A stretch of 64,000 bases of DNA from a virus (IMGVR_UViG_3300008954_000005:64001-128000); one strand, 5' to 3'. Shown: positions 19,043-42,787, numbered from the stretch's first letter. Made by a program: numbers and translations. Notes: generated by a model not told the origin, from the letters alone.

Positions 19043-19062
19043 TTTTAGGTATAAGAACTATG
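19043..19062 (+). promoter_or_regulatory. putative phage-RNAP promoter, copy 1 (TTTTAGGTATAAGAACTATG)
   Basis: 14 of 20 positions identical to the copies at 23119 and 42768; intergenic; upstream of a plus-strand gene. Confidence 0.7.
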
Positions 19063-19092
19063 GAGCAATGTAGCTCCCAACCAAATAAGAGG

Positions 19093-19120
19093 AGTATACC
19101 AGCGTGTATCTTTCTAACAA
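19093..19120 (-). promoter_or_regulatory. sigma70-like promoter for the RNAP gene (TTGTTA-N16-TATACT with extended -10 TG)
   Basis: Minus strand reads TTGTTAgaaagatacacgcTGgTATACT, about 80 nt upstream of the RNAP ATG, which has SD GGAGG. Confidence 0.45.
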
Positions 19121-19166
19121 TCATGGAACAATAGTCAAAGAGGTGCTTTATGTGGTGTCTTAACAC

Positions 19167-19445
19167 ATGCGAACTATTCGCGTCAGCCGTAGAATCATCG
19201 CTGATGATCGTCGGATAGCGATGTCTACTCGCGCCCCCAAACCTATTGCTTGTGACGTTGCCGGAATCTGGTGCTACGAACCCAAGAATTGCGGGGCGTG
19301 TGCTCATTTCATTGAGAACACTGGTTGCGTTAGATGGGTTTGCTCTGCATGTGTCGTTAAAGCTGATAAGGCCTCCCCGTACTATCAACGGGGCGTTTGC
19401 GACAGATGCGATAACCCCTCGGCAATACTAATTCTTGTCCATTAA
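19167..19445 (+). CDS. small Cys-rich putative zinc-binding protein
   Basis: 92 aa with 9 Cys including CGAC, CSAC and CDRC; fills the gap between RNAP and portal; its stop overlaps the portal stop (TTAA). Confidence 0.65.
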   Translation: MRTIRVSRRIIADDRRIAMSTRAPKPIACDVAGIWCYEPKNCGACAHFIENTGCVRWVCSACVVKADKASPYYQRGVCDRCDNPSAILILVH

Positions 19446-21445
19446 ACCTGCGCTCTATCTGGGTCTGCGCGTGAAGGTAGTTTCTCCGGTAGGGGATTCA
19501 TGGACTTCACGCCAGCCCCAGATAGGGCATTATTCACCAACATGTAGAGATCAGGGTTGCTTGCACGGATTTGGGACATGGCCCGATACCTGTCCACCTC
19601 ATTCATCTTTTTTAGCTCTGAGGTGAGTTGCTTGGCCTGTGCAAACATATCTACCATGCCGCCGTTTTGTTGAGCCTGAACCGGACTCTGCTCCACCCCT
19701 TGGACAGGCCCGCCTTCTTGTTGCGGCGGCTGTTGTTGCTGTTGCTCCATTCCGGGAGGCGGTGCCCCCTGTTGTTGAGCGGCGGCTGGATCACCGCCGC
19801 CTTGCTGTGGCGGAGCGCCTCCTTGTTGCGGAGCACCACCGCCCTGTTGAGCGGCTGCTTGTTGCTGGGCCATTTCCGGGAATGCCTGTTGCAACTCCTG
19901 CTGAGACTCTGCCTGTAGGAATTGAGCCTGTCCCTGATACCGAGTATTGATGAGCATTGCTTCGCCCTGAGCGCTCGCCTGTGCGATCATTTGCTCACGC
20001 TGCTGCTTATTCATCTTCGTCAGTTCAGTGCTGATAAGTTCCTGCTCGCTCTCAAAGTTAAAGTCTCGGGACTCCAAGAAGGTTCTGCGACTAATCATGT
20101 TTGAGCCAGCAAGCTGCATATCAAACTGTGCTCGCTGGATGTCGTCAGCCATCTTGAATGGCTTGAACTTCAGTTTGATTTTAGGAAGATCCAAGAAAGC
20201 GCACACACGATCACGGATAAACTCAACGAGACGAAGCATATCCTGCCGATTTCCCAAAAACTCATTCTCTAGCGCCCTAAGATTCACTGAGGCCCCTGAG
20301 TACTGCTGCTCTCCGTAAAAGAACCCAGTGGGAACACCCATTCCAGCGATTATTTGATCATTATAAATTCGGAGTTCTTGGTGGAGGAGTAGTGACCGCC
20401 CTTGCCCGCCAATCATCTGGTAGCCAACGGGGACAGGCATCACCGGGATATGGTTGTTGTCCTGCCGCCACTTCTTAATCTGACTAGAGACCTCTTCCTG
20501 CCAATCCTGAAGATTGATGTGTGCGTAAGGGTTGTTCCCGTCTGTAGTTACCTGTGGAAACATGACCCGCATGGGGACGATGTGCTCCATGGCGACAGCT
20601 TCCTGAGCTTTCCTCAAGACCTGTAGAAAGAAAATATCCTTAAGCACTGGGAGGATGAGTGGAGCACCCCAGCCACTATCGGAGGGGGCTCTTGAGATTG
20701 ATGCACGTTTCGCGTGAAACAGTTTAGAGCTTTCGAGAAGGATGCTCTTCTTCTTCCGCATTGCCTCGATAAAAGCCTGCGGCACCGTTTCGATGATTGA
20801 GGGTTTACCGAGGGTGATATCGTTTTTGATATAGCGAGGAACCTCGTAGTAATACTCGCTTTTCCCGGTAATTTCGTTGTAGTTGATTTTGATGTTCTTC
20901 GGATTCCAACGAATAAGCCGAATCTGTAGGCCAGCCTTTACTGGCTCATCCTTTACACCAGCAATCCCTTCGTGCCCGCACGAGTCGCAAGTGATGTGGA
21001 ATTGATAGCTCTTCCACTTGTACTTGATCTTCCTTGCCTCGTAGTCTGCCTTGCACTCCTTACAAGTAAGAACCTTTGTAAAGGGGAAGGATACGGAGAC
21101 AAAAGCATTGCCGTACGTGTACCTATCTAGATTCGTTTCTACGAGGAACTGCCGCAGCAAAAACTGCTTTTCGAAGATCTCTTTGTATCGCTCTGTGACG
21201 CCTTCGTTATCGTCCTCATAGATAAGGTCGGTAATGGCGTAAGTTGCGAGCTTCTGCGTAATGCTGCTGACCAGGGGATTAGTAAGCTGGTAGTACAAGC
21301 ACCAGTCAAAAGTATCTTTGATCGTTTTGGGTAGATAGTTTTGTGCAACGTCAAAAAAGGGACTCGGGTAGAACTTTTCTGGTCTGCCCACCGTGGATGC
21401 GCGGGCTCTACCGCCTGAAACGTAACGACCAATATTACTAGACAT
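19442..21445 (-). CDS. portal protein with Zn-ribbon insertion and Q/P/G-rich tail
   Basis: Portal-like pattern (YTYGNAFV, LIRWNP..I, GWGAPLILP, IIAGMGVP, GASVNLRALEN); CKEC...CDSC insertion; lies in the head module. Confidence 0.75.
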   Translation of the reverse strand: MSSNIGRYVSGGRARASTVGRPEKFYPSPFFDVAQNYLPKTIKDTFDWCLYYQLTNPLVSSITQKLATYAITDLIYEDDNEGVTERYKEIFEKQFLLRQFLVETNLDRYTYGNAFVSVSFPFTKVLTCKECKADYEARKIKYKWKSYQFHITCDSCGHEGIAGVKDEPVKAGLQIRLIRWNPKNIKINYNEITGKSEYYYEVPRYIKNDITLGKPSIIETVPQAFIEAMRKKKSILLESSKLFHAKRASISRAPSDSGWGAPLILPVLKDIFFLQVLRKAQEAVAMEHIVPMRVMFPQVTTDGNNPYAHINLQDWQEEVSSQIKKWRQDNNHIPVMPVPVGYQMIGGQGRSLLLHQELRIYNDQIIAGMGVPTGFFYGEQQYSGASVNLRALENEFLGNRQDMLRLVEFIRDRVCAFLDLPKIKLKFKPFKMADDIQRAQFDMQLAGSNMISRRTFLESRDFNFESEQELISTELTKMNKQQREQMIAQASAQGEAMLINTRYQGQAQFLQAESQQELQQAFPEMAQQQAAAQQGGGAPQQGGAPPQQGGGDPAAAQQQGAPPPGMEQQQQQPPQQEGGPVQGVEQSPVQAQQNGGMVDMFAQAKQLTSELKKMNEVDRYRAMSQIRASNPDLYMLVNNALSGAGVKSMNPLPEKLPSRADPDRAQV
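19606..19617 (+). terminator. putative sequence-specific termination signal TCTTTTTTAGCT, copy 1
   Basis: Exact 12-mer shared with the terminators at 41628 and 43548; 160 nt after the 19167-19445 gene; antisense within the portal CDS. Confidence 0.5.
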
Positions 21446-21454
21446 AATAATCCC

Positions 21455-23093: not shown

Positions 23094-23118
23094 TTCTATC
23101 TCCACAATGGTTGAGCCC

Positions 23119-23138
23119 TTTTTGGTATAAGCACTTTG
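23119..23138 (+). promoter_or_regulatory. putative phage-RNAP promoter, copy 2 (TTTTTGGTATAAGCACTTTG)
   Basis: At the strand switch heading the replication block; matches the motifs at 19043 and 42768. Confidence 0.7.
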
Positions 23139-23179: not shown

Positions 23180-23452
23180 ATGTCAAATGATAAACCGTAT
23201 ACCATTAATGTAGAAGTGCCAACTGATTCTATAACAACAGATGAACCCAGAGAAGTTCCTGAAATTTTAGTAACTGGTTTGATGGACTTATTCAATAGGA
23301 TCTCCCGCAGTCTCCGCAAACCACCCTCTCAAGATACCACAGGGACTGCGCTTGAAACCGGTGGAACCATCATAGATATCGACTTTGACGAAGTATCTGC
23401 TTGTGACAAAGAAGATTCTGTCATATATCATGATAGCGATCAAGACAACTAG
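23180..23452 (+). CDS. small acidic hypothetical protein
   Basis: MSNDKPY start with SD GGAGG; 90 aa. Confidence 0.6.
   Translation: MSNDKPYTINVEVPTDSITTDEPREVPEILVTGLMDLFNRISRSLRKPPSQDTTGTALETGGTIIDIDFDEVSACDKEDSVIYHDSDQDN
23403..23435 (+). promoter_or_regulatory. sigma70-like promoter (GTGACA-N17-TATCAT) overlapped by inverted repeats, probable operator
   Basis: TGACA-N10-TGTCA (23404-23423) and palindrome TATCATGATA (23426-23435) lie just upstream of the XRE gene. Confidence 0.55.
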
Positions 23453-23463
23453 CAGAGGACTCT

Positions 23464-23901
23464 ATGAAAACAAAATCTCGTTTCGGCACGGTTTTGTCAA
23501 CCATGCGAACCAGCCGCAGACTGTCCTCTCGTAAATTTGCAGAATTGTGTGGATTAAATAGAGAGACGTACCGTCAGTACGAAACGGGCAAAGTTTTACC
23601 GCCAAACCAGAGTTTGGAGAAGATTCTTAAGGCACTCGACCTTGACCCCAGTAAAGACGAAGAGGCTAAACGGCTGATAGCGGCTCTATACGAAGAACGA
23701 AGTAAAAGAGAGCCCGCAGCTAAACGAGCTTTTGGTGCCGCCGCTAACGCGGAACTTCGGAAATATATTAAAAAGGACTCCATCTCAGAAGACAAGACCG
23801 CCCGAATAGTGGACTTGTTCTTTGAGCACCTCCCAACAGAACGAACGGAGAGTATGGAACATTTTATCTCGGGGGCAATAACCCGGATATTGGAGAAGTA
23901 A
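23464..23901 (+). CDS. XRE-family HTH transcriptional regulator
   Basis: FGTVLSTMR...LSSRKFAELCGLNRETYRQYETGKVLP...LEKILKAL. Confidence 0.88.
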   Translation: MKTKSRFGTVLSTMRTSRRLSSRKFAELCGLNRETYRQYETGKVLPPNQSLEKILKALDLDPSKDEEAKRLIAALYEERSKREPAAKRAFGAAANAELRKYIKKDSISEDKTARIVDLFFEHLPTERTESMEHFISGAITRILEK

Positions 23902-23902
23902 C

Positions 23903-25306
23903 TTGAAACCCTACCTACCAGAAAGTGACCAGGGTGCGTCGCTTGAAGGTCTAGTTTGTTGTTCTGCTTCCGTTTGGGTTCCCTCTGAGCGGTTGACCAA
24001 CAAGCAAGCCTTCATACGAGCAGCCACGATCAATGTGGTAAACGACCGGACTGGGGATGTAACCTCAGTACCGCTAGCCGCAGAAGTAGGGGATTACGTT
24101 GTAATAGCTAGACACTTTTTCACTAAAGAGGTCTGGTTAGAGAAGGTAGAGTCTTGGGAACAAGTCTCTCTTTCCTACGAATCTTTTGACTTCGGTGACA
24201 AGATCACACCTAGAGACGCTGACCAGCTTGCTGCTTGGGAAGCCTTCTCTGAAAGAAATCACGGCGTCTTGAACCTAGCCTGCGGAAAAGGCAAAACCGT
24301 CCTAGCACTAAAAAAGATTGCTCAGCGCGGACATCCCGCCGTCGTTGTGGTGAACAACAGTGGCCTTATGGATCAATGGAAAGAGCGTGCATTAGAGTTT
24401 TTGGACATCTCAGAAGATGACATCGGTATCGTGCAAGGCCCAAAGGCTGAGTGGGATAAACCTCTTGTCATCGCCATGATTCACACCCTCGCAAAACGAG
24501 CAGACTCTATCCCCTTGGATATCCGAACCCGTTTTGGAACTGTTGTGTTTGATGAAGTACACCACCTCTCGGCCACAACCTTTAGCCAGACAGCCCCATT
24601 ATTTTTCGGTAATAGGTTCGGCTTAACCGCTACACCTTGCCGGGAAGATGGCTTAGAAGATGTGTACTACTCTCATGTAGGGCGCATTTTCTATAGTGAT
24701 TTAGCTGGTGACATAGAGGCGGAGATATACTTCAAGAAGGTGTCCACCCCAATGCCAAAAGACACCTCGGTGATTAAAGACATCACCGGAGAGTTCTCGG
24801 CGGGGAAGATGTACAAATACTTTGCGGAGCACGACGCCCGCAACGTCGCCCTTTTAAAGACGGTCGAGTCCGCGTTGGACAGTGGAAGAAAAGTCCTTGT
24901 CCTCACGCACAGTAAGGATCATCCAGCCATCATGGTTGAGAAGTTTCTGGACAGCCCGTGTAAGGAAAGGTATACAGCAGGGGCGGTTTCAGGGGATACC
25001 CCCGGAGACCTCCGAACGAAAATAATTGAAGATAACAACGTGACTTTCGCCACTTTTGGGGTTGCCCGTGAGGGGCTGGATGTCGCAGCACTGGACACGC
25101 TTATTTTTGCTAGTCCATTTAAGGCTTGGGGGGCGTTTCAACAAGGGAAGGGGAGAATTGAACGCCGCCACAAAGACAAGAAACCCCCAGTGGTTATCGT
25201 TTTAGACGACTATAACTTTGGCCCAGCCAGGGCAATGTGTAAACACCTAAGGAAGAGTATTAGAGCCAATGGATTTAGACACAGTGACATCGGAAGAGAA
25301 GATTGA
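23903..25306 (+). CDS. superfamily 2 DNA helicase (UvsW/XPB-like)
   Basis: LACGKGKT, VFDEVHH, GLTATP.REDG, REGLDV, QQGKGRIER. Confidence 0.9.
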   Translation: MKPYLPESDQGASLEGLVCCSASVWVPSERLTNKQAFIRAATINVVNDRTGDVTSVPLAAEVGDYVVIARHFFTKEVWLEKVESWEQVSLSYESFDFGDKITPRDADQLAAWEAFSERNHGVLNLACGKGKTVLALKKIAQRGHPAVVVVNNSGLMDQWKERALEFLDISEDDIGIVQGPKAEWDKPLVIAMIHTLAKRADSIPLDIRTRFGTVVFDEVHHLSATTFSQTAPLFFGNRFGLTATPCREDGLEDVYYSHVGRIFYSDLAGDIEAEIYFKKVSTPMPKDTSVIKDITGEFSAGKMYKYFAEHDARNVALLKTVESALDSGRKVLVLTHSKDHPAIMVEKFLDSPCKERYTAGAVSGDTPGDLRTKIIEDNNVTFATFGVAREGLDVAALDTLIFASPFKAWGAFQQGKGRIERRHKDKKPPVVIVLDDYNFGPARAMCKHLRKSIRANGFRHSDIGRED

Positions 25307-25937
25307 GAACTTACTGTTCGAACAACGCTCTTGCACCTCATGTGGTCTCCACAGAAACCGCAAAGTTCTTCTTTGTGGAAAAGGCAGTCCTAGTACCCAC
25401 CTTGTAGCTGTAATTGATCGCGTCGGCCCAAGGGCCGCTGTGACAGGCGATATTCTCTCAAGCGGTGAAGGCCGGTTCCTGAACACTCTGTTCAAGAGAG
25501 CCGGAATGAGTCCAGCGGCTATTTGGGTTACCCCAGTAGTATCTTGCCCGACAGGGGGGCTTAGGCCACAACCACGTCGAATAGAGATGCTTCCGGCACC
25601 GAAAAAGTCAGAAGTAGAAGCATGTAATACACGGCTCCACCAAGAGATTCATCTAATTGAGCCTTGCCTTATATTTGCCTTCGGCTCCGCTTCAGTGAAC
25701 GCGCTTGTTCCAAACGTAAAGGTTCAAGAAGTACAAGGGCGGGTAGTAGAGGCCTTCATTCAGGGAGACCTAATTAAATACCCAGTGCCTACTATGGCAC
25801 TCCCATCTGTCAACCAACTGTATAGAAACCCGTCACAAAAAGTCGGGGGTATATGGAATAAGACACTAGATAACATACGCGTGGGTTTAGATATAGCCCA
25901 CAGAATCAAATCCTTAAGGAGGAATCAACATGGCTAG
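25269..25937 (+). CDS. uracil-DNA glycosylase family-4-like protein with degenerate active site
   Basis: CTSCGLHRNR, G.GSP, VVSCP, P...EVEAC..RLHQEI.LIEP, LYRNP follow the UDG-F4 fold; GEAPG and HP motifs are missing. Confidence 0.8.
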   Translation: MDLDTVTSEEKIENLLFEQRSCTSCGLHRNRKVLLCGKGSPSTHLVAVIDRVGPRAAVTGDILSSGEGRFLNTLFKRAGMSPAAIWVTPVVSCPTGGLRPQPRRIEMLPAPKKSEVEACNTRLHQEIHLIEPCLIFAFGSASVNALVPNVKVQEVQGRVVEAFIQGDLIKYPVPTMALPSVNQLYRNPSQKVGGIWNKTLDNIRVGLDIAHRIKSLRRNQHG

Positions 25938-26352
25938 TGAACGAGAAGTACGGAAGCTTGAGAAAGCTTTCGCAAACAAAAGAGATCAATTGTTGGAATT
26001 TATGGCTGACCACGAGCAAGTGTTTGACCAGTTCCATCAACTTGTACAGGAGTACAACGTTTCTCGCAGTAATGCGATTGACGCATTTAGAAGTCGTCCC
26101 GGAACGGACCCCATGTCTATCGGGATTATGGACCGCTCACGGGCACCAGAAACCTGGGCCTACGAGCCCCATGAACTTCCGTCTTCATATCTGAAGACCC
26201 CTGGCGTCGTTAAATCCGTTGATAACCGTGTAATCGAGCAAGGTATTGTTGCAGGTACCTTCGACGCCGACTTGATTAACGGTGCTAGAACCAAAAAGCA
26301 CGGCACCCCACGGGTCTCGGCCCCGAAGGAAGTCGTTATTAAGGTCGCATAA
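25930..26352 (+). CDS. hypothetical protein
   Basis: SD AAGGAGG; 140 aa; N-terminal coiled coil. Confidence 0.75.
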   Translation: MASEREVRKLEKAFANKRDQLLEFMADHEQVFDQFHQLVQEYNVSRSNAIDAFRSRPGTDPMSIGIMDRSRAPETWAYEPHELPSSYLKTPGVVKSVDNRVIEQGIVAGTFDADLINGARTKKHGTPRVSAPKEVVIKVA

Positions 26353-34059: not shown

Positions 34060-34228
34060 AGTAATAATCGAGGATGAGCTTAAAGCCGACAGCTTCGAAA
34101 GGGCGCTCGTAGTAACCCTAGATCGTATTGAGACCGAAGAAACCGTAGCCTCCGTGGAGTGTCTCTCTACGGGGGAAGTACGGCACTACGAAATACAAAC
34201 AGGAGAAAGGTTAGATGACGAATCATGA
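34040..34228 (+). CDS. small hypothetical protein
   Basis: MEQKHY..., coupled ORF. Confidence 0.55.
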   Translation: MEQKHYRVIIEDELKADSFERALVVTLDRIETEETVASVECLSTGEVRHYEIQTGERLDDES

Positions 34229-35146: not shown

Positions 35147-35148
35147 TT

Positions 35149-35418: not shown

Positions 35419-35896
35419 TTACCTGCCCGCAGTTAGATCATCCTATTTTAGGGTGAAGGACAAAGAGAAGTTTCAAGATTGGTTCGATACCCTCATCTCT
35501 AGCGATGATGGTTTAGAGCTTTGGACAAAGGCGGTAGATACCGCAGAGGTCCACCAAAAGTACGCGAGTGACCCGGAAGAAGAGCCGTTTGAACTCGTAG
35601 CCTTCGGGGGGTACACCAGTTGGCCCTGTGAGCGCATAATTGTAAAAAATGATGGTGACGGGGGCGAGGGGGACGACTTTGAAGACTGTGAAGAAATCGA
35701 CTTCACAACGGAACTACAGGAGCACGTCCACGAGGACTGGTCTGTAATCTTACAAGAAATCGGATATGAGAAGCTCCGATACCTTGTGGGCTTCTGCGCC
35801 ATCGTAGATAGTGAAAATATTGAATGGATCGATCTGACCAACTGGGCCGTAACAAAGATCCCAGATGGAAGTAAGTTTACATCACCGGAGTACTGA
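35411..35896 (+). CDS. hypothetical phage protein
   Basis: MANY...RSSYFRVKD...EIGYEKLRYLVG. Confidence 0.75.
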   Translation: MANYLPAVRSSYFRVKDKEKFQDWFDTLISSDDGLELWTKAVDTAEVHQKYASDPEEEPFELVAFGGYTSWPCERIIVKNDGDGGEGDDFEDCEEIDFTTELQEHVHEDWSVILQEIGYEKLRYLVGFCAIVDSENIEWIDLTNWAVTKIPDGSKFTSPEY

Positions 35897-35899
35897 TAG

Positions 35900-36448
35900 A
35901 TGAACCTGAGCGAGTACCAAAGGTTAGCAGCGAGAACCATCCCAGTAGAAGAAATAGATAGCCTTCTAACGAACTTTTGTTTAGGTCTTGCTGGGGAGGG
36001 TGGGGAGTTGATTGACCACGTTAAGAAAGCGGTCTTTCATAAGCACGCCCTTGATAAAGATTACTTGGCTAAAGAGCTTGGTGATCTCCTTTGGTACATC
36101 GCCGGGATTTCGAGCATATTAAAACTCGACCTGTCGGACATAGGTGATATAAATATAGACAAGCTGAAGCGCCGTTATCCGAACGGCTTCACAACCCATC
36201 ACAGTGTTCACCGGGAGGAAGAATTGGACATAAATGACATGATCAAGAAGCGGCAAGTAGCCTTACTAGAAATCATCGGATCAGTGAATACCACTGTCAC
36301 CGAGGGTGATGCCGTCGTTGGGGCCTTCCTCGACATAGACCAAGGCTACGTTGAGCTAGAAGATGGCTCTGGCTACCGAATGTCTATGGGACCAGTAACC
36401 AAGTCTGAGATGCGTTCCGTGAAGAAACGCCTAAACCTAGAAGAGTAA
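35900..36448 (+). CDS. MazG-like nucleoside triphosphate pyrophosphohydrolase
   Basis: YQRLAART, LGLAGEGGE..D.VKK, KELGDLLWY, NIDKLKRRYPNGF. Confidence 0.9.
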   Translation: MNLSEYQRLAARTIPVEEIDSLLTNFCLGLAGEGGELIDHVKKAVFHKHALDKDYLAKELGDLLWYIAGISSILKLDLSDIGDINIDKLKRRYPNGFTTHHSVHREEELDINDMIKKRQVALLEIIGSVNTTVTEGDAVVGAFLDIDQGYVELEDGSGYRMSMGPVTKSEMRSVKKRLNLEE

Positions 36449-36452
36449 TATT

Positions 36453-36698
36453 ATGGAAAAATACAGCGACGCCTCCCAACTTGTCGCAACACTTCTGAAG
36501 ATGAAGCTCTGCGATTCTGAAGAGGCTGCGATGGAAAAAATAGCTTCCGGGAGAGCCCCCCAAATGATTAAGGACTTCAAGATGAAGCTGCTTAACGACA
36601 TGGTCAGTCTGTACAGAGACCAGCTTGGGGATGACGGTATGGACCCAGAACTTATCGAAGAATTTGAAAAAATGAGAAAAGAACTAGAGGAGACCTGA
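36453..36698 (+). CDS. small hypothetical protein
   Basis: 81 aa; coupled to RecA. Confidence 0.65.
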   Translation: MEKYSDASQLVATLLKMKLCDSEEAAMEKIASGRAPQMIKDFKMKLLNDMVSLYRDQLGDDGMDPELIEEFEKMRKELEET

Positions 36699-37780
36699 TG
36701 GCCAAAAAAGATCTAAGCCACCTCATTAAATCGGTACAAAAGCGTCTCGGTGGAGCCGCGACAGTTACCCCCATTACAGAGGTAGAGACCCCGTTTGATA
36801 CGAGGCTCCCTACCGGAATATTATCGCTTGATATCGCGTTAAAAGGCGGGTTGCCCGGTGGCTCAATGATCCAACTTTTCGGGCCAGACGGCGTAGGTAA
36901 AGACTACCTTTCGAACCGAGTGATTGCTGAGGTACAGCGGACACACGGAGACGCAGCTAACATTGCCTGGATGAGCTTCGGATACAAACCGGACCCAGGG
37001 TTCATGGAACTGGCTGGTATTGATCTAGATTGCGGAAACCTACTCTTTGTCGATCTCGCTACCACCGACTCCGATGCACCAGCAGAGACAATGCTGGACG
37101 CCATGCTAGAGATGGTTAAATCCCAGGAGTTCCACTTGTTGATCATCAACGAACTCGGCTCCGGAGAAACGCGACACAATCTAGTTAAAGGCCTGGGCGA
37201 AGACGCAAAAATCGCTACGTGGGCTTCTTTACTTAGTTCCTTCTGTCAGAAGTTCTACTCTGCCATGCGCGTTCCTGGCGAGGACGGCAAGCCCAACCAG
37301 ACTTGTGTAGTCATGATTAACCCGGTTCGGGCAAACATGAACGCGCACAGCGCGAAGTACGTTCCTTACACCCAGCCTGGGGGATACGCCCTCAAGCACG
37401 CAAAAGCTGTAGATATTCACTTGAAGCCGGGTCAGACCCTAAAGAAGGGAACGACAAAAATCGGAAAAGAGATCAAGTGGAAAATCTCAAAAGGCAAGCA
37501 CGGGATTAGCGAGGGTGCTGAGGGGAGCTATAGCTTCATCTTCAACCAAGGCGTAGATTTAGTTCAAGACCTAGCGCGTGCAGCAAAGGCACACGGTGTG
37601 GTTAGGAATAGCGGTCCTGTTTACTATATCCTCGATTACGAGGATAAAATCAAAGGTGGCCTGGATGGGGTAGTCTCAATGTTGAGATCGTCCCCAGAAC
37701 TAGCCGCTGAAGTCCGAGCCGCAGTGCTGGGTAAAACACCCAATGAAGAGGAGCCTTCTGATGATGAAGTACTTACCTGA
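36698..37780 (+). CDS. recA: RecA/UvsX-like recombinase with non-canonical ATPase motifs
   Basis: LPTGILSLDIALKGGLPGG, FGPDGVGK, TQPGGYALKH, KGKHG, GVDLVQDL, G..Y. Confidence 0.88.
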   Translation: MAKKDLSHLIKSVQKRLGGAATVTPITEVETPFDTRLPTGILSLDIALKGGLPGGSMIQLFGPDGVGKDYLSNRVIAEVQRTHGDAANIAWMSFGYKPDPGFMELAGIDLDCGNLLFVDLATTDSDAPAETMLDAMLEMVKSQEFHLLIINELGSGETRHNLVKGLGEDAKIATWASLLSSFCQKFYSAMRVPGEDGKPNQTCVVMINPVRANMNAHSAKYVPYTQPGGYALKHAKAVDIHLKPGQTLKKGTTKIGKEIKWKISKGKHGISEGAEGSYSFIFNQGVDLVQDLARAAKAHGVVRNSGPVYYILDYEDKIKGGLDGVVSMLRSSPELAAEVRAAVLGKTPNEEEPSDDEVLT

Positions 37781-38039
37781 ACCAGCTATTTTCATAGTGT
37801 TAATCTCATTCCTCGTCGTCTCTACCGGTTGGTACCTGTTCTGGATCCAACCAAACGATGCGAAGTTAGCGAAAATACACGCCTGTATGGGCGAAAAATA
37901 CGCCGACCTACAACAAGCCGATGGCGATCTCTGGCGAGTTTACGCTCGCTCTGGAACACTCTCGGCTAGTGCGGCAGGTAATGAGCTAGACCACGCTATT
38001 TACACCTCGTGTGTGAGACAGCTAAATACCGGTAACTAG
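37761..38039 (+). CDS. small membrane protein
   Basis: N-terminal TM helix AIFIVLISFLVVSTGWYLFWI; two Cys. Confidence 0.65.
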   Translation: MMKYLPEPAIFIVLISFLVVSTGWYLFWIQPNDAKLAKIHACMGEKYADLQQADGDLWRVYARSGTLSASAAGNELDHAIYTSCVRQLNTGN

Positions 38040-38040
38040 C

Positions 38041-38808
38041 ATGGCAAGACTCTGTATTCGGATAGGGCCAAAAGCACAACCGCACTATGTAGATGGGTTC
38101 CCCTTCCTTCCTGGGCTGTACTTTCACAAGCCGCCCAAGAAGGCAAAGGGGGGCACAGAGTATTCCATCACGCATATAAAGAGCGGTCTTGCGGTCCTCC
38201 CGAATATAGATGAGCGTCACCTAGAGCTATGCCGAATGATTCTAGGGCGCGTAGACTGGGACAAGGGCGCGGAACAGATTTACAACGACACAACATATGA
38301 CATCGTAATAAAGGAGGCATTAGCTGTGACCACAAACCGCGATGCTAGTAAAAAACAAGAGAAGCGCATCGCGAAAGAACTTGAAGGAAAAACTCAAGCA
38401 GGCTCCGGGTCAGTTTGGGGGTTCAGACGGGATGTGGTGACACCAGAGCTTCTGGTGGAAGCGAAGACAACAACAACGGGGAAATACGCCCTAAGCTTAA
38501 AAGACCTAAAGCACTTGAAATTTCAAGCATATTCAGAAGGTAAAATACCTGCGTACATAATAGAGTTTGCGAGGAAAGGTGAGGTAGCCATAGTCCCATT
38601 TCAGGATCTAGGAGAAGATTTCCTAGAAGAGCTTTCTTCTACTAGGGATATCCCAAGCAAAAAGAAATCTTCAAAGATATTAACTATTTCTCTAGAGATG
38701 GCCGCAGACGTTTTCAATGACGTAGGCGTGCGATTTACCGTTGAGTCGGATGAGTATCTACTGATGAGCTACGAGAATTTCCTCACCTTTGCGAAAAGAG
38801 GTATATGA
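38041..38808 (+). CDS. PD-(D/E)XK nuclease, Holliday-junction-resolvase-like, with extra N-terminal domain
   Basis: KKQEKRIAKEL.G.TQAGSGS....RDV...LLVEAKTT. Confidence 0.75.
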   Translation: MARLCIRIGPKAQPHYVDGFPFLPGLYFHKPPKKAKGGTEYSITHIKSGLAVLPNIDERHLELCRMILGRVDWDKGAEQIYNDTTYDIVIKEALAVTTNRDASKKQEKRIAKELEGKTQAGSGSVWGFRRDVVTPELLVEAKTTTTGKYALSLKDLKHLKFQAYSEGKIPAYIIEFARKGEVAIVPFQDLGEDFLEELSSTRDIPSKKKSSKILTISLEMAADVFNDVGVRFTVESDEYLLMSYENFLTFAKRGI

Positions 38809-38809
38809 A

Positions 38810-39523
38810 ATGGCAAAGAAAAAAGGATTTAGGATTCCAGCACGCTGCCTAAACGAAAAGAAGATAAAAGAGGACGGAGAGTTCTCAGTATTAAAAGAAA
38901 TAGAGCGTATTGACTTCGAATCAAACCTAGAGCCTTGGTCTAGAAGAACCGGTGGGTATCACCCATCCTCTCTTACGCCAACGGCCTGTAAACGTGCTCT
39001 TTGGTACGACCGGACAGGGCAAGAGCCCGAAAGCCGAATCCCATCAGATCTCCGTATGCTGTTTGACATGGGGCACGCGCTTCACGACATGATCCAAGAG
39101 AAGCTTGAGAAGGAGTTCGACGGATTCAACGCCGAGATCCCAATCAGTAACGAAGACCTCCACATCGTGGGCCACTGCGACGGAATATTCCGTGATAGGG
39201 ACTGGCTACTTGAGATCAAAACAGTGGGCGAGAGTGTGTTTAAATCACTTGTTCGGCCCAAGAAAGAGCATATCTACCAAGTACACTGTTACATGTTCTG
39301 CGAGGACGTCCCAAGGACTCAGCTACTTTACGTGGCTAGGGCGACGGGACAGATGCGACTCTTCAAGATTGAGTTCGACAACGACATCTTCCAGGAAATT
39401 GTGAGCATAATAAAGACAGTTGAAGAATTTGTAGAGGCTGGAGAAGCCCCTCCAAAGGAACCAAACAAATGGGTATGTAGAACATGTAAGTTTCAGCATG
39501 TCTGCCAGCCCTTCAGCGAGTAG
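38810..39523 (+). CDS. Cas4-like PD-(D/E)XK exonuclease with Fe-S cluster
   Basis: HPSSL..AC.R.LWY, GHALH, GHCDG, LEIKT, QVHCY, CRTCKFQHVC. Confidence 0.85.
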   Translation: MAKKKGFRIPARCLNEKKIKEDGEFSVLKEIERIDFESNLEPWSRRTGGYHPSSLTPTACKRALWYDRTGQEPESRIPSDLRMLFDMGHALHDMIQEKLEKEFDGFNAEIPISNEDLHIVGHCDGIFRDRDWLLEIKTVGESVFKSLVRPKKEHIYQVHCYMFCEDVPRTQLLYVARATGQMRLFKIEFDNDIFQEIVSIIKTVEEFVEAGEAPPKEPNKWVCRTCKFQHVCQPFSE

Positions 39524-39532
39524 GAGGTGCCT

Positions 39533-40078
39533 ATGGCTGAGAAGGATTTATTCCTTGAATTACGTGAAACACTAGAAAAAGATCTGCGTGCCACGGGTTT
39601 TGCTCCTGATCGGGAGCCACCCAGTGAAGAACCTAGACTACCTGCTGGGTTGAAGGACTTACCGAACGAAGACCTCAAAGAACTCTACGATGATTTCTTG
39701 GCGTTCTTTGAGTATCTTTCTGATCAAGTTGCTAAAGCCAGTAGCTACATGTCCGTCAGTAAAGCGAGACTTGAGGCGGTAACCGCGACGGCAACTCTTG
39801 CATCTGCCAAAGATAAAAAGTTAACCAACGCAGACCTCCGAAAGGCGTACGTCGTAACTGCCTGTTTAGGGGCAAAGCGGGACTACGTTTACTTCAAGGC
39901 AAAGGTAGATGTCCACGATGCTAGGCTAAGAAAGATAAGCAAAAGCATGGACAGAATCGGAAGAGAGCTATGGTTTAGAACACAAGATGAGCCCGAGCGT
40001 AACTCTGAGTTTTCCTTGAGTAAATCAAAGCCAGCAAAGAAATTTGCCGGGGGTTATAAGCCGGTGTCTCGTGAATAA
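39533..40078 (+). CDS. coiled-coil protein, possibly UvsY-like recombination mediator
   Basis: SD AGGAGG; long helical protein within the recombination cluster; function inferred from context. Confidence 0.55.
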   Translation: MAEKDLFLELRETLEKDLRATGFAPDREPPSEEPRLPAGLKDLPNEDLKELYDDFLAFFEYLSDQVAKASSYMSVSKARLEAVTATATLASAKDKKLTNADLRKAYVVTACLGAKRDYVYFKAKVDVHDARLRKISKSMDRIGRELWFRTQDEPERNSEFSLSKSKPAKKFAGGYKPVSRE

Positions 40079-40505
40079 AAATAAGACGGTGTTCACTGCA
40101 GAGTTGACGTTGCTACCACCGTCAGTTAACAATATGTATATCTATACTGCTCGTGGGCCTAGGCCGTCTAGCAAGATGAAACAGTTTAAAGCGAAAGCGT
40201 CTATGGAGATAGCCCAACAACTGTCCTTTGACGGGAGCCCTCTAAACGGAGACAAGCCCCATCGACTAAGTATTTACTACTACCTACCAGCCTTGTTCAA
40301 CAAGGGGTGGCCAACAAAGGCCAAGACCCGATTCAAGCGGCGGGACGTATCAAACTTAGTAAAGGTGTTAGAGGACGTACTGGCCGACTGTTTAGGTATC
40401 GACGATTCTTGTTTCACGGAGGAGTTTATTCAGAAATTAGACGGACCCGCCCATGACTTCGTGGGCATCAAAATAAAAATAGAAGAGCTTAGCGATGAAT
40501 CCTAA
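40071..40505 (+). CDS. rusA: RusA-family Holliday junction resolvase
   Basis: PPSVNNMY, RDVSNLVKVLEDVL..GIDDS. Confidence 0.88.
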   Translation: MNKNKTVFTAELTLLPPSVNNMYIYTARGPRPSSKMKQFKAKASMEIAQQLSFDGSPLNGDKPHRLSIYYYLPALFNKGWPTKAKTRFKRRDVSNLVKVLEDVLADCLGIDDSCFTEEFIQKLDGPAHDFVGIKIKIEELSDES

Positions 40506-40779
40506 AACAGGTAAGGAGGAACTAAGGCACATAGTCCTAGAACAAACAGGAGTCCGTGTGTCTCCATCAACAAAGCTAGAAGACCTACACAGTTTTCTGC
40601 AATTCAACCTAGAGGAAATACCAGAAACGCCTATCAATCAAATGAGAAATAGTCTTATAGCTTTTATTGAAAACAACCGTAGCAGGCTTTCCCTCCCATG
40701 TAATGGTAACTGCTACGAGCATCATGATGGGGTTGTATTATTCTGCTATAAACAACTCCTGGAGGAAGAAAATGGGTAA
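40495..40779 (+). CDS. hypothetical protein
   Basis: 94 aa; LPC.GNC..H....V..CY motif. Confidence 0.65.
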   Translation: MNPKTGKEELRHIVLEQTGVRVSPSTKLEDLHSFLQFNLEEIPETPINQMRNSLIAFIENNRSRLSLPCNGNCYEHHDGVVLFCYKQLLEEENG

Positions 40780-41563
40780 AGTAACAAAGAAAATGTTGAC
40801 CCCGCTCGACCGAGCGGAAATTAGAAAAATCGTAATCGTGGGAATGGGGATGGAACCCCTTGAAGCGTACACCAAGAAAGAGGGCGAAACGATCTCTTGG
40901 ATTCAAGAGCGTGCTGAAGACTTTGCGTCTCTGGACCTAGAGACCATTGGCGCGGAACAGTTCCGACCAAATGTCGTAGCGTACCTACAGCAGTTGCAGC
41001 AATTCATTCTTGGTAACTCCAAGGCTCCCACCTTCCCTACTGGCGGGGCCACGGAAGAGGCAGTGGAAGCTGAAGAAGGCACTGCTGTCACTGTTGAACC
41101 TCCTAAGAAGAGGAAGCGTGGACGTCCCCGCAAAAACCCGGTAGTAGAAACTGCTGCTACTGAAGAAACTGTCGAAGCTGCCCCTGCTAAGCGAAAGCGC
41201 GGTAGGCCACGCAAGACCACTACAGACGCCAAAGCTGCTACTAAGACGGCTACCAAGAAGCAGGAAACCACCGCCAAGAAAAAGAAGGGCGGCTTCCGAG
41301 TAAAGAAGACTGCTGCTGAAGCTGTTGAGGTGGTGAAGGAAGAAATTCCAACCACTACGCCTGAGGTCACCCTTAGTGTGGGTACCGACCTTAATTCCTT
41401 CCTGACGGGGATTGATAGCCTCCGTGGGGAGGTTCAGGCGATGCGTGCTGAGCAAGCGGCGATGTACGCTGATTTGCATGACGCTTTGGTATACATCCTT
41501 AATACGGCGATCATTGAAGACGATGATGACCTTATTAAGGACTTGTCACAACTAAAGAAGTAG
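40772..41563 (+). CDS. AT-hook/histone H1-like DNA-binding protein
   Basis: Two KRKRGRPRK AT-hooks, K/A/T-rich tract, C-terminal coiled coil; SD GGAGG. Confidence 0.8.
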   Translation: MGKVTKKMLTPLDRAEIRKIVIVGMGMEPLEAYTKKEGETISWIQERAEDFASLDLETIGAEQFRPNVVAYLQQLQQFILGNSKAPTFPTGGATEEAVEAEEGTAVTVEPPKKRKRGRPRKNPVVETAATEETVEAAPAKRKRGRPRKTTTDAKAATKTATKKQETTAKKKKGGFRVKKTAAEAVEVVKEEIPTTTPEVTLSVGTDLNSFLTGIDSLRGEVQAMRAEQAAMYADLHDALVYILNTAIIEDDDDLIKDLSQLKK

Positions 41564-41594: not shown

Positions 41595-41640
41595 GAAGGG
41601 GGGATCACCATCACGGTGGTCCCCCCTTCTTTTTTAGCTA
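41595..41640 (+). terminator. intrinsic terminator ending the replication block, with TCTTTTTTAGCT tail
   Basis: Stem GAAGGGGGGATCACC/GGTGGTCCCCCCTTC, U-tract, then AGCTA. Confidence 0.85.
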
Positions 41641-42629
41641 CTACCAGTATCGGCACCCGCGTCCAGTCCAGTATCCGGCTCATCAATCACATACCCAATC
41701 TCAACCAAAGAATTACTCGGGGGTATCACCGTAAACAAAACTTTGTTCTCTACCGCGTCATACGTCCAGTCTGAGTTCAATGCGCTATCGATAAATACAC
41801 GAACAGTGTCCACTATTGGGGTATGCGAAAGAGGCCATTCGCTGTGAGGCTCTACTTGTACGCCAGCATCAACAGACCCCTGTGACCAATCCTCTGAGCA
41901 AATATCCAAAACAACGCCAACGAAATGGTTCGTCACGTCAATATACTTGTCACCCGCATGCATCGCAGAGCTATTGCACATAGACTCGGCGGGGTCGAGG
42001 TTCACGATGCTGGCGGCAAACGGAGAGATAGACGTCGTTTGATACCAATAGATGAAGTCTTGGGCCGTCGCCATAGTTACGCTCTGGTCATCTTCGTCAG
42101 ACACAAACACAACTAGAAGCGCCGCATCATCTCGCATCCATGTGAGCGAGTATGGATTTGACATTACATAGTGGTACACAGCGTCAAGCCCAGCCTCAAG
42201 GTGCCCACTAGCCATATTATTCAGCATGTCTGTCGCATCCTGAACAGTGTCTCCAGGCACCAGAGGGAACTGGTTCTCAATAGAGGCAGCAGTCGGGTCC
42301 GCTGGAATTATTGCAAGACGCCATCCAGACGGTGGTAAGGCGTTCATCATGGCCCCTATACCCGCGAGTAGATTGGGCTCATCATTCTGCATGGATCCAG
42401 ACTGGTCAACCACCCACAGGATGTCTACGCCGTCAACCGACCCAGGCTGGGTAAAGGAATCTACCCATACATTCCCCCCTGGAACCTCCTCTTCAATATA
42501 GACGGGCACCTCCACGGGCACCTCGACTATATTTTCGTAGGTTAAGTAGTGGTCAGATCCACATCCGATCTGACTCGGTATTAATAGGCCGGTCGCTGTA
42601 AGCAATGTAGTAATAACCTGTCTTCCCAT
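41634..42629 (-). CDS. vWA-domain lipoprotein
   Basis: Signal peptide with lipobox-like QIGC; MIDAS DILWVVDQSGSM; E.GL.A; LLVVFVSDEDDQS; DICSEDW. Confidence 0.8.
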   Translation of the reverse strand: MGRQVITTLLTATGLLIPSQIGCGSDHYLTYENIVEVPVEVPVYIEEEVPGGNVWVDSFTQPGSVDGVDILWVVDQSGSMQNDEPNLLAGIGAMMNALPPSGWRLAIIPADPTAASIENQFPLVPGDTVQDATDMLNNMASGHLEAGLDAVYHYVMSNPYSLTWMRDDAALLVVFVSDEDDQSVTMATAQDFIYWYQTTSISPFAASIVNLDPAESMCNSSAMHAGDKYIDVTNHFVGVVLDICSEDWSQGSVDAGVQVEPHSEWPLSHTPIVDTVRVFIDSALNSDWTYDAVENKVLFTVIPPSNSLVEIGYVIDEPDTGLDAGADTGSS

Positions 42630-42635
42630 ATTTAG

Positions 42636-42641
42636 ATTATA
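42636..42641 (-). promoter_or_regulatory. TATAAT -10 box, 6 nt upstream of ATG (probable leaderless transcript)
   Basis: Minus strand ccaTATAATctaaatATG; no SD. Confidence 0.5.
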
Positions 42642-42675
42642 TGGAACGCGCTAATACTTGAAGAAGACCATTCCG

Positions 42676-42767
42676 ATAATAATTTTTATTATTTAATAAT
42701 TACAGCGTAATAAAATACCCATTATCACTACGTAATAAATGCCCAAAAAGTGCAAAAATAGGGGTGT
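42676..42767. repeat. AT-rich intergenic element with an inverted repeat and a direct repeat
   Basis: ATAATAA-TTT-TTATTAT (42676-42692); CGTAATAAA(A)TRCCC twice (42706-42720, 42731-42744). Confidence 0.55.
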
Positions 42768-42787
42768 TTTTAGGGATAAGAATAGTG
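42768..42787 (+). promoter_or_regulatory. putative phage-RNAP promoter, copy 3 (TTTTAGGGATAAGAATAGTG)
   Basis: Matches the motifs at 19043 and 23119; heads a two-gene plus-strand unit. Confidence 0.7.

What the first reader, a model, noticed from the sequence alone, without database searches (positions are those of the whole stretch)
19043..42787. Conserved 20-bp motif TTTTWGGKATAAGMAYWNTG at three minus-to-plus strand switches
19043-19062 TTTTAGGTATAAGAACTATG; 23119-23138 TTTTTGGTATAAGCACTTTG; 42768-42787 TTTTAGGGATAAGAATAGTG. 14 of 20 positions are invariant. All three are intergenic, on the plus strand, and about 40-105 nt before the first gene of a unit. The motif is one contiguous block with no -35 partner, unlike a sigma70 promoter. 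I saw no clear copy before the small plus-strand ORF at 4717. Inference: single-block phage-RNAP promoter with the start site near the terminal TG.
Basis: partly seen in the sequence, partly recalled or inferred. Interest (0 to 1): 0.8.

Follow-up and report, generated by a model that had tools for sequence, protein, structure and literature searches.

The report
Phage's own sigma-type promoter class
The three 20-base motifs are real copies of a two-part promoter that this uncultured 156-kb phage, and a whole family of relatives up to a cultured Salmonella phage, most likely use with their own bacterial-type RNA polymerase and their own sigma factor rather than with the host's enzyme.

Summary
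Observation confirmed. The three copies are exact. A matrix trained only on nine sites outside the window ranks them as its three best untrained hits inside the window. The genome has 13 such sites, all co-oriented with the next gene and none deep inside a long gene. First reading partly right: it is very probably a phage-specific promoter with its start at the terminal TG, but it is not single-block. Across the family, GCAA lies exactly 16-17 nt upstream of GGnATAAG, giving sigma70-family geometry: -35 GCAA, 17/18-bp spacer, -12 nATAAG -7, G+1. The -7 base is always G, never T. The phage encodes one fused beta-beta' RNAP (window 12780-19013) and one divergent sigma70-family factor (outside the window). 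Both are core genes of the family. The same GGTATAAG-N5-TG block occurs about 30 times before non-structural genes of Salmonella phage Arash, whose purified virions contain RNAP beta, beta' and the orthologous sigma (PMC10585845). Salmonella's own promoters are TTGACA/TATAAT. Best model: a phage sigma-RNAP holoenzyme, probably virion-delivered, reads these promoters. No RNA or binding data exist. This scan found the same promoter class before on other phage genomes (e1-5813184, e1-5877005 and others). I found no paper in the searched library describing it.

The parts
19027..19062 (+). Promoter site 1: -35-like GCTA 19027-19030, 17-nt gap, GG 19048-19049, TATAAG 19050-19055, TG 19061-19062 (G 19062 = predicted +1). 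Divergent from, and 14 nt away from, the RNAP start codon; the RNAP ribosome-binding site (antisense CGGAGG, about 19021-19026) abuts the -35 block.
   Evidence: 25.6 bits; conserved in 10 relatives
19062..19077 (+). 5'-terminal RNA hairpin (GGAGC-loop-GCUCC) beginning at the predicted +1 G.
   Evidence: a hairpin starts at this G in 9/9 orthologues, with different stem sequences
19221..19445 (+). Small Cys-rich protein (about 74 aa, 8 or more Cys) driven by site 1. The open frame starts at 19167, but the conserved start is 19221.
   Evidence: conserved in L001, L002, L003, L005, L006, L008, L009, L013; no Pfam family
19606..19617 (+). TCTTTTTTAGCT, candidate end of unit 1. It lies inside the 3' end of the convergent portal gene and has no strong hairpin.
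23104..23138 (+). Promoter site 2: -35-like ACAA 23104-23107, 16-nt gap, GG 23124-23125, TATAAG 23126-23131, TG 23137-23138.
   Evidence: (25.1 bits), 26 and 63: CACAAGG and TTTTTGGTATAAGCA are invariant in 8 relatives while the spacer varies
23180..41563 (+). Unit 2, about 18.4 kb. It holds a 90-aa protein, the XRE-type HTH protein (23464-23901), a helicase (23903-25306) and the other plus-strand ORFs, most of which I did not annotate.
41598..41639 (+). Intrinsic-type terminator closing unit 2: G/C hairpin 41598-41626, then TCTTTTTTAGCT 41628-41639.
42752..42787 (+). Promoter site 3: GCAA 42752-42755, 17-nt gap, GG 42773-42774, GATAAG 42775-42780, TG 42786-42787.
   Evidence: 21.6 bits; the whole promoter is conserved in G003 although the upstream context differs
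42848..43496 (+). Unit 3: a 59-aa ORF (42848-43027) and a 136-aa ORF (43086-43496).
43529..43559 (+). Terminator closing unit 3: hairpin 43529-43544, then TCTTTTTTAGCT 43548-43559.
12780..19013 (-). Single-chain beta-beta' multisubunit-type RNA polymerase (2077 aa, NADFDGD motif). It is the only RNAP gene in the contig and has no motif promoter of its own.
19442..21445 (-). Portal protein, an orthologue of Arash gp204. The order portal - RNAP - helicase is shared with Arash.
5070..6857 (-). SNF2-family helicase, a homologue of the virion-detected Arash gp217.
   Evidence: PMC10585845

Best explanation
The motif is the downstream two-thirds of a bipartite, sigma70-family-type promoter. The consensus is GCAA, then 16-17 nt, then GG-n-ATAAG, then 5 nt, then TG. 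In promoter numbering this is -34 GCAA -31, a 17/18-bp spacer, GG at -14/-13, nATAAG at -12 to -7, and G at +1.

It is most likely read by the phage's own sigma factor, a 299-aa divergent sigma70-family protein at genome 153079-153978, outside the window. That sigma probably works with the phage's own single-chain beta-beta' RNA polymerase (window 12780-19013).

By analogy with Salmonella phage Arash, the polymerase and sigma are probably packaged in the virion and injected. They would then switch on the non-structural units without host RNAP: small early genes, tRNAs, the replication module and the small Cys-rich gene.

The virion, RNAP and sigma genes themselves lack the motif and must use another signal.

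Shown here: the motif class, its two-block geometry, its position and orientation, its family-wide conservation, and the presence of sigma and RNAP.
Inferred: which protein binds it, the exact start site, and virion delivery in this phage.
For: 1. Motif class. There are 13 sites in the 156-kb genome. All are co-oriented with the next gene. In 9 of the 13 a Shine-Dalgarno-preceded ORF starts 30-61 nt after the predicted +1. One site lies 19 nt before tRNA-Lys. The other three have longer leaders.

2. Fixed partner. GCAA lies at 16 nt (41 cases) or 17 nt (13 cases) from GGnATAAG over 1.8 Mb of family DNA, with 3 or fewer cases at every other distance. When sites are selected only on the flanks, nATAAG appears in 30 of 127 and nATAAT in none. 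TG is 70-89% conserved without being selected.

3. Footprints. Both blocks are invariant and the spacers vary in orthologous sites of relatives with 63-78% RNAP identity.

4. Family-wide spread. GCAA-N17-19-ATAAG gives 198 hits against 41 for the reversed control in 25 genomes. The family loci span 44.5-64.4% GC.

5. Own machinery. There is one beta-beta' RNAP. There is one sigma, supported by TIGR02937/TIGR02980 and Pfam Sigma70_r3 matches, an RpoS match in the PDB, and a Foldseek top 50 that is all sigma factors. Sigma is present in 13 of 14 relatives that are at least 90% complete. No second sigma was found in G000 or in the complete relative G003. The region 4.2 helix (VSRLK) and region 2 residues are among the most conserved columns of the sigma alignment.

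6. Cultured relative. The Arash genome has GGNATAAG 36 times on the gene strand against 7-8 in controls. Its consensus is GGTATAAG-N5-TG. In one 47.5-kb stretch, 14 of 14 sites lie in annotated intergenic gaps, 13-150 nt before the next gene. Arash gp10 is the best GenBank homologue of this sigma. RNAP beta, beta', sigma gp10 and helicase gp217 were found in purified Arash virions (PMC10585845).

7. Start site. The 5' hairpin starts at G+1 in 9 of 9 orthologues.
Against: No transcript 5' ends, binding data or in vitro transcription exist for any member of this family.

Phage sigmas often redirect the host core enzyme (T4 gp55 and SPO1 gp28, from general knowledge), so sigma could pair with host core instead of the phage RNAP.

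Virion packaging is shown only for Arash, which shares about 30% identity. The Arash authors themselves note that abundant enzymes could be carried over in the particle preparation.

In the distant relative G022 a motif copy lies about 200 nt upstream of the long ORF that carries the sigma domain. That fits an early, host-read promoter as well as self-reinforcement.

Vibrio phages D69/D148/D181 have a homologous RNAP and sigma but show no enrichment of the motif.

Arash has only a weak -35 block at the GCAA position.

The contig is only 87% complete, so a second sigma or RNAP could have been missed here.
Confidence: 0.7

Rival explanations
1. The phage sigma reads these promoters but recruits the HOST core RNA polymerase, as T4 gp55 and SPO1 gp28 do. 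The phage beta-beta' enzyme would then serve other promoters, for example those of the late genes.
For: The promoter has canonical sigma70-family geometry. Sigma factors from one bacterium can work with foreign cores (PMC5829568). The RNAP and sigma genes are about 70 kb apart and are not co-transcribed.
Against: Sigma and the fused RNAP are both core genes of the family. In Arash both are found in the virion together, which would be pointless if sigma only needed host core. The region aligned to RpoS region 2.2, which in known holoenzymes contacts the beta' coiled-coil (PMC12784957), is strongly diverged: EFQLRF where RpoS has EGNLGL.
Confidence: 0.15
2. It is an ordinary early promoter read by the host's housekeeping sigma factor. 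The deviations from TTGACA/TATAAT would reflect the unknown host's own consensus.
For: TATAAG matches TATAAT at 5 of 6 positions. The 17/18-bp spacer and the 7-nt distance to the start are canonical. In Arash a T often precedes GG, giving a TGn-like extended -10.
Against: The same GGTATAAG-N5-TG block is used by a Salmonella phage and by aquatic or other uncultured phages spanning 44-64% GC. G at -7 is invariant and T never appears there, whereas T-7 is one of the two bases that sigma70-type factors flip out and bind (PMC7598289). T before GG is depleted in the distant clade. Where present, the -35 is GCAA, not TTGACA.
Confidence: 0.08
3. It is a protein-binding operator, for the XRE-type protein at 23464-23901 or another regulator, rather than a promoter.
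For: An XRE-type HTH gene is the second gene of unit 2. One of the 13 promoters (genome 39158) does overlap a separate palindrome.
Against: The motif has no obvious dyad symmetry (by eye). All 13 of 13 sites here and 14 of 14 checked in Arash are co-oriented with the downstream gene and lie at a fixed distance from it. Three separately conserved blocks at -35, -10 and +1 spacing do not fit an HTH dimer site.
Confidence: 0.03
4. It is a single-block promoter of the T7/N4 kind, recognised directly by the polymerase without a specificity factor.
For: The 20-nt block from the T-rich stretch to TG is the most conspicuous conserved part. In Arash the upstream block is weak.
Against: There is no single-subunit RNAP gene; the enzyme is beta-beta' type. 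The GCAA partner sits at a fixed distance. A conserved sigma is present.
Confidence: 0.04

Closest known systems
Salmonella phage Arash (OQ632216.1; PMC10585845), with RNAP beta gp206, beta' gp216, sigma gp10 and helicase gp217 detected in virions
   Same: The portal (34% identity), RNAP (about 31%), SNF2 helicase (27%) and sigma (30%) are homologous, and the order portal - RNAP - helicase is shared. The same GGTATAAG-N5-TG block precedes its non-structural genes and a tRNA. Hairpin terminators ending in TTTTAGC also occur there.
   Different: In Arash the RNAP is split into two genes, a second and more canonical sigma (gp196) is present, and the -35 block is weak (cCAnAA rather than GCAA). 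The published paper does not mention promoters. Arash is cultured; this phage is not.
Sigma-28 (FliA, group 3) promoters: (-36)TCTAAAG(-30) ... (-15)GCCGATAA(-8) (PMC12784957)
   Same: Both have the A-11 T-10 A-9 A-8 core in the same register. Both extend the -10 element upstream with G/C-rich bases. Both have AA at -32/-31 in the -35 block. Both have 19 nt between that block and ATAA. The sigma has regions 2, 3 and 4 but no long region 1.
   Different: The 5' extension is GGn, not GCCG. G-7 is an extra invariant base. The -35 is GCAA, not TCTAAAG. The phage sigma scores far below the FliA/WhiG and SigB/F/G family cut-offs, so it is not a member of those subfamilies.
Sigma-B promoters of Bacillus: GTTTAA-N15(+/-2)-GGGTAT (PMC9847131)
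   Same: The -10 element is G-rich at its start: GGGTAT against (G)GGTAT(AAG). The best NCBIfam subfamily hit of the sigma is SigB/F/G.
   Different: The -35 differs, the spacer is longer, and in the distant clade the register differs (GGGATAAG). This is a resemblance only.
Early promoters of the virion RNAPs of jumbo phages phiKZ and AR9 (PMC7598289)
   Same: A phage multisubunit-type RNAP, probably carried in the virion, would read a conserved roughly 10-nt block centred near -10 before early genes. That block can be found by bioinformatics alone. phiKZ late promoters also start at the G of T-A-T-G.
   Different: Those enzymes are split into several beta/beta' pieces and have no sigma70-family factor. 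Their early motifs are AT-rich single blocks. Here the enzyme is one chain, a true sigma70-family protein is present, and the promoter is bipartite with a -35 partner.
mReC clade: multisubunit-RNAP-encoding Caudovirales (Weinheimer & Aylward 2020, PMC7481178)
   Same: Both are uncultured tailed phages with a deeply branching beta/beta' RNAP, found widely in metagenomes. This contig probably belongs to that wider assemblage. This is inferred from the RNAP and from IMG/VR relatives; I did not test it by phylogeny.
   Different: That paper does not mention sigma factors or promoters.

Membership tests
Sigma70-family-dependent bipartite promoter | Two conserved blocks separated by a fixed spacer of about 16-18 bp | tested here: met
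   GCAA lies 16 nt (41 cases) or 17 nt (13 cases) before GGnATAAG, which equals a 17/18-bp spacer between hexamers. All other distances have 3 or fewer cases.
Sigma70-family-dependent bipartite promoter | A -10 element with A at -11 and an A/T-rich core | tested here: met
   When sites are selected only on the flanks, the hexamer is nATAAG in 30 of 127.
Sigma70-family-dependent bipartite promoter (housekeeping type) | T at -7 and a TTGACA-like -35 | tested here: not met
   The -7 base is G in all sites. nATAAT occurs 0 times in 127. The -35 is GCAA.
Sigma70-family-dependent bipartite promoter | Transcription starts 6-8 nt downstream of the -10 element | not testable with these tools
   Only indirect support exists. 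TG is conserved 6-7 nt after ATAAG. A hairpin begins at that G in 9 of 9 orthologues. SD-preceded ORFs lie 30-61 nt further on in 9 of the 13 sites.
Sigma70-family-dependent bipartite promoter | A cognate sigma70-family factor is available | tested here: met
   The 299-aa protein matches TIGR02937 at E 2e-7. TIGR02980 aligns over residues 127-298. Sigma70_r3 scores above its cut-off. The Foldseek top 50 are all sigma factors.
Sigma70-family-dependent bipartite promoter | Direct, sequence-specific binding and open-complex formation by the holoenzyme | not testable with these tools
   This needs EMSA, footprinting or in vitro transcription.
Single-subunit phage RNAP promoter (T7/SP6/N4 type) | A single-subunit RNAP gene and one contiguous recognition block with no upstream partner | tested here: not met
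   The RNAP has Rpb2_3/6/7 and Rpb1_1/2/3/5 domains. A GCAA partner is present.
Jumbo-phage virion-RNAP early promoter (phiKZ/AR9 type) | Split beta/beta' subunits, no sigma70-family factor, and an AT-rich single block at -10 | tested here: not met
   The enzyme is one fused chain, a sigma is present, and the motif has a GG extension and a -35 block.
Jumbo-phage virion-RNAP early promoter (phiKZ/AR9 type) | The polymerase is packaged in the virion | not testable with these tools
   This is shown only for the relative Arash, by mass spectrometry (PMC10585845). Here it is inferred from homology and gene order.
Repressor operator (XRE/Cro type) | Dyad symmetry, with position independent of gene orientation | tested here: not met
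   No dyad is visible in the motif (by eye; no repeat search was run). All 13 of 13 sites are co-oriented with the downstream gene, as are 14 of 14 in Arash.
FliA/WhiG or SigB/F/G sigma subfamilies (for the sigma protein) | A score above the curated subfamily cut-off | tested here: not met
   TIGR02980 scores 25 bits against a cut-off of 234. TIGR02479 scores 15.9 against 189.6.

The most novel reading that the evidence does not exclude
A complete, host-independent, bacterial-style transcription kit travels in the virion. It would consist of a single-chain beta-beta' RNA polymerase, a dedicated sigma70-family factor, a private bipartite promoter (GCAA-N16/17-GGnATAAG-N5-TG, with an obligatory G at -7) and a private terminator tail (hairpin plus TTTTAGC). 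The kit would be conserved from a Salmonella phage to a large family of uncultured phages spanning 44-64% GC. This would be the first sigma-dependent phage multisubunit RNAP. It would also be a ready-made orthogonal polymerase, sigma and promoter set.
Probability: 0.5. Interest if true: 0.8.

Novelty: new variant of a known kind. Interest (0 to 1): 0.62.

Why it matters
The phage multisubunit RNA polymerases studied so far (phiKZ, AR9) work without any sigma70-family protein and use single-block or minimal promoters. Here a whole phage family appears to keep the bacterial scheme of core, sigma and a -35/-10 promoter, but in a private version. Its -7 base is G, which housekeeping sigmas do not accept.

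The consensus defined here turns an uncharacterised polymerase family into a directly testable system. The templates, the sigma and the polymerase are all known sequences, and a cultured relative, Arash on Salmonella, carries the same -10 block.

The consensus also gives a practical rule for annotating transcription units in these phages. If confirmed, it offers a compact orthogonal transcription module.

Tried and rejected

2. A six-frame search with Pfam Sigma70_r2 found nothing, and Sigma70_r4 hit only a ParB-like ORF. The sigma was found only with TIGR02937.

3. Vibrio phage D69 has a homologous RNAP and sigma but no enrichment of GCAA...ATAAG or GGNATAAG. The motif therefore does not extend to that branch.

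4. The second sigmas of D69 and Arash have no counterpart here.

5. I looked for a second, late promoter class. 7-mer enrichment gave only terminator T-runs, the motif itself and an uninformative TTATTAG. Simple sigma70 scans at window 18000-24000, 42500-43000 and 52700-53200 gave nothing above shuffles. My crude gene calls in Arash were too noisy for this. Earlier notes of this scan report a host-like class before virion genes in other genomes. I could not confirm or exclude it here.

6. Literature: the mReC paper, the moraphage paper and a full-text search for GGTATAAG gave no promoter description.

7. I did not run the large homology searches for sigma, because they could not settle which enzyme reads the motif.

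Full report
**What the window is.** The window is bases 64001-128000 of a single 155,722-bp IMG/VR virus contig, linear and estimated 87% complete. It is a tailed phage. It carries a large terminase (3075-4724, minus strand) and an SNF2 helicase (5070-6857, minus). It also carries a 2077-aa single-chain beta-beta' RNA polymerase with NADFDGD (12780-19013, minus) and a portal (19442-21445, minus). Other features are an XRE-type protein (23464-23901, plus) and a 2883-aa ORF rich in Gly/Asn/Asp repeats that I did not characterise. The RNAP has the bacterial-type domain set Rpb2_3/6/7 and Rpb1_1/2/3/5. It is the only RNAP gene in the contig.

The three 20-mers are exactly where stated. Each lies where a minus-strand gene meets a plus-strand unit.

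I therefore searched the whole genome. GG[GT]ATAAG and TATAAG turned up ten further promoter-like sites in the first 40 kb.
- The next real hit in the genome scores 17.8. Twenty shuffled genomes had maxima of 15.9-21.9.
- The genome thus holds 13 sites.
- TATAAG is half as frequent as expected: 38 against about 81.

All 13 sites point at the next gene. In 9 of them a Shine-Dalgarno-preceded ORF begins 30-61 nt after the terminal G. One site is 19 nt before tRNA-Lys, and the other three have longer leaders. No site occurs in the two long minus-strand blocks that hold the virion, packaging, RNAP and sigma genes.

**The motif is not a single block.** Aligning the sites showed a second block, yGCAA, upstream. 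I counted the distance from GCAA to GGnATAAG over the genome, two complete relatives and 57 distant loci, 1.8 Mb in all. It is 16 nt in 41 cases and 17 nt in 13, and every other distance from 8 to 25 nt has 3 cases or fewer. Control tetramers show no such peak.
- Selecting only on GCAA-N19/20-ATAAG recovers GG at the two positions before nATAAG (66-92%), an A after it, and T (70-84%) G (74-89%) 6-7 nt downstream.
- Selecting only on the flanks recovers nATAAG in 30 of 127 cases, and never nATAAT.

In promoter numbering the consensus is -34 GCAA -31, a 17/18-bp spacer, G-14 G-13, n-12 A-11 T-10 A-9 A-8 G-7, and G+1. This is the geometry of a sigma70-family promoter with an unusual, invariant G at -7.

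**Phylogenetic footprints.** The RNAP finds 70 loci in IMG/VR. Thirteen share 63-78% identity and the rest 37-45%. In the close relatives both orthologous sites keep the -35 and -10 blocks while the spacer changes. Site 3 is likewise conserved in the complete relative G003, although its upstream neighbourhood differs.

The ribosome-binding sites and start codons of the divergent minus-strand genes abut the -35 blocks. These are the RNAP and the gene ending at 23093. The leftward transcripts must therefore start inside the rightward units.

Behind site 1, a hairpin begins exactly at the G of TG in 9 of 9 orthologues, with different stem sequences: GGAGC, GAGGCA, GAGCAG, GCAGCAG and GGAGGA. A structure pinned to that base is what a 5'-terminal stabilising stem would look like. 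It supports the predicted start, but only indirectly.

Site 1 drives a conserved Cys-rich protein of about 74 aa whose conserved start is 19221.

**The motif follows the phage family, not a host.** In 25 family genomes GCAA-N17-19-ATAAG occurs 198 times, against 41 for the reversed control. In distant members a copy very often lies 60-100 nt upstream of, and divergent from, the RNAP gene, as here. The family loci range from 44.5 to 64.4% GC, and the motif is present at both extremes. In the distant clade the -12 base is mostly G, C or A rather than T.

**The phage has its own sigma.** A six-frame search with TIGR02937 found a 299-aa ORF at genome 153079-153978, outside the window, among basic proteins of the late block.
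- It passes the Pfam Sigma70_r3 cut-off.
- It aligns to TIGR02980 (SigB/F/G) over residues 127-298.
- It matches RpoS chains in the PDB (E 4e-5).
- An AlphaFold model (pLDDT 71) has only sigma factors among its 50 best Foldseek matches.
- It falls far below every subfamily cut-off, so it is a divergent sigma70-family member and not a FliA or SigB orthologue.

Homologues occur in 21 of 24 long relatives and in 13 of 14 relatives that are at least 90% complete. No second sigma was found in this genome or in the complete close relative. In the alignment of 20 homologues, the region 4.2 helix (VSRLK) and region 2 positions are among the most conserved columns. This parallels the invariance of GCAA and ATAAG.

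**A cultured relative settles host versus phage.** The best GenBank-phage matches to the RNAP include Salmonella phage Arash. Arash gp10 is the best match to the sigma: 29.6% identity, E 4e-19. The portal (34%) and SNF2 helicase (27%) are also homologous, and the order portal - RNAP - helicase is shared.

The Arash paper reports that RNAP beta gp206 had the most spectra of any protein in purified particles. It also found beta' gp216, sigma gp10 (100% coverage) and helicase gp217 there, and it suggests a role in early transcription. It says nothing about promoters (PMC10585845).

I found GGNATAAG 36 times on the Arash gene strand, against 7-8 in controls. The consensus is ctGGTATAAGtAAagTGTA, with T (87%) G (74%) at the same distance as here and a weak cCAnAA at the GCAA position. 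In one 47.5-kb stretch, 14 of 14 sites lie in annotated intergenic gaps. They are co-oriented and 13-150 nt before the next CDS or tRNA, among replication and nucleotide-metabolism genes.

Salmonella's housekeeping consensus is TTGACA/TATAAT, and sigma70-type factors flip out and bind T-7 (review PMC7598289). A block with invariant G-7 that is shared by a Salmonella phage and by uncultured phages from other environments is therefore a property of the phages.

**Mechanism proposed.** The phage sigma reads GCAA through region 4 and GGnATAAG through regions 2 and 3. It probably does so on the phage beta-beta' core, with initiation at the G 7 nt downstream. By analogy with Arash, the holoenzyme is packaged and injected, and it transcribes the non-structural units.

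In the window these are three units, each closed by TCTTTTTTAGCT.
- Unit 1: 19062 to about 19617.
- Unit 2: 23138 to 41639.
- Unit 3: 42787 to 43559.

The virion, RNAP and sigma genes lack the motif, and I could not define their signal here.

The steps that are shown are the motif class, its geometry, its conservation, and the presence of the genes. The steps that are inferred are the sigma-motif pairing, the choice of core, the start site, and virion delivery in this phage.

**Comparison with known systems.** The closest promoter architecture is that of group-3 sigmas. Sigma-28 promoters read (-36)TCTAAAG(-30) ... (-15)GCCGATAA(-8), with A-11 flipped (PMC12784957). That is the same ATAA core in the same register, with a G/C-rich 5' extension. 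Sigma-B promoters read GTTTAA-N15-GGGTAT (PMC9847131).

The logic resembles the virion-RNAP early promoters of phiKZ and AR9 (PMC7598289). Those enzymes, however, are split, lack a sigma70-family factor and use single AT-rich blocks.

The phage probably belongs to the RNAP-encoding Caudovirales of Weinheimer and Aylward (PMC7481178). That paper does not treat sigma or promoters.

**Relation to earlier notes of this scan.** After I had reached the reading above, a word search showed that other agents had described the same GGTATAAG class, the Arash link and a second host-like class on other genomes. I count these as agreement, not as evidence. The one item I took from them is the sigma-28 paper, which I checked.

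**Verdict.** This is a real promoter class, conserved across the family. I rate it a new variant of a known kind: a private sigma-type promoter for a phage-encoded polymerase and sigma pair.

Noticed in passing
window 19221-19445 (+): A protein of about 74 aa with 8 or more Cys and no Pfam family. It is conserved in eight close relatives. It always lies behind the site-1 promoter and is divergent from the RNAP start. It could be a zinc-ribbon transcription factor, for example for the late genes.
   Followed up: partly
window 19606-19617, 41598-41639, 43529-43559; genome 27250: The units end in a G/C hairpin followed by TCTTTTTTAGCT; the copy at 19606 has no hairpin. The tail TTTTAGC is also the most enriched intergenic 7-mer in the distant relative G022. 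It follows several hairpins in Arash too, so the terminator tail may be family-specific.
   Followed up: partly
window 22098-23105 (-) and 19013-19026: The minus-strand gene probably starts at ATG 23093 (conserved CAT, antisense GGAG at 23100-23103) rather than at GTG 23105. Its ribosome-binding site, like that of the RNAP gene, abuts the -35 block of the divergent promoter. The leftward late transcripts must therefore start inside the rightward units and run antisense to them.
   Followed up: partly
window 23187-23214 (-): A sigma70-like TCTACA-16-TATCAT lies on the minus strand inside the first codons of the 90-aa gene. The TATCAT is kept in most relatives, but it coincides with a conserved Asp-Asp-Lys coding stretch. 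Whether it is a promoter for the leftward block is open.
   Followed up: partly
window 5070-6857 (-): An SNF2-family helicase homologous to Arash gp217, which was found in Arash virions. It may be part of the injected transcription apparatus.
   Followed up: partly
genome 28434 (35.6 kb before the window): A motif promoter lies 19 nt before tRNA-Lys. Four tRNA genes (Lys, Leu, Ile, Arg) lie downstream at 28465-31700. Arash has the same arrangement, with a site 13 nt before tRNA-Asn.
   Followed up: yes
genome 39158 (24.8 kb before the window): The predicted +1 of this promoter is overlapped by a TGACA-N10-TGTCA palindrome upstream of a ParB-like gene. This is a likely case of repression at the start site.
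   Followed up: no
genome 37708 (26.3 kb before the window): GGTATAAG-N5-TG occurs inside a coding region without a GCAA partner. It is conserved in the relative G003. It could be an internal promoter or a coding constraint.
   Followed up: no
genome 4441 and 5010: Two promoters share an almost identical upstream stretch (TTTTTACCTGCAA...), which suggests a local duplication of a promoter-plus-gene cassette.
   Followed up: no
G022 25485 (+) (within locus L092, which spans G022:25443-29219): In this distant relative the sigma domain is the C-terminal part of a 681-aa open frame, and a motif copy lies about 200 nt upstream of that frame. Sigma may be under its own promoter class there.
   Followed up: no
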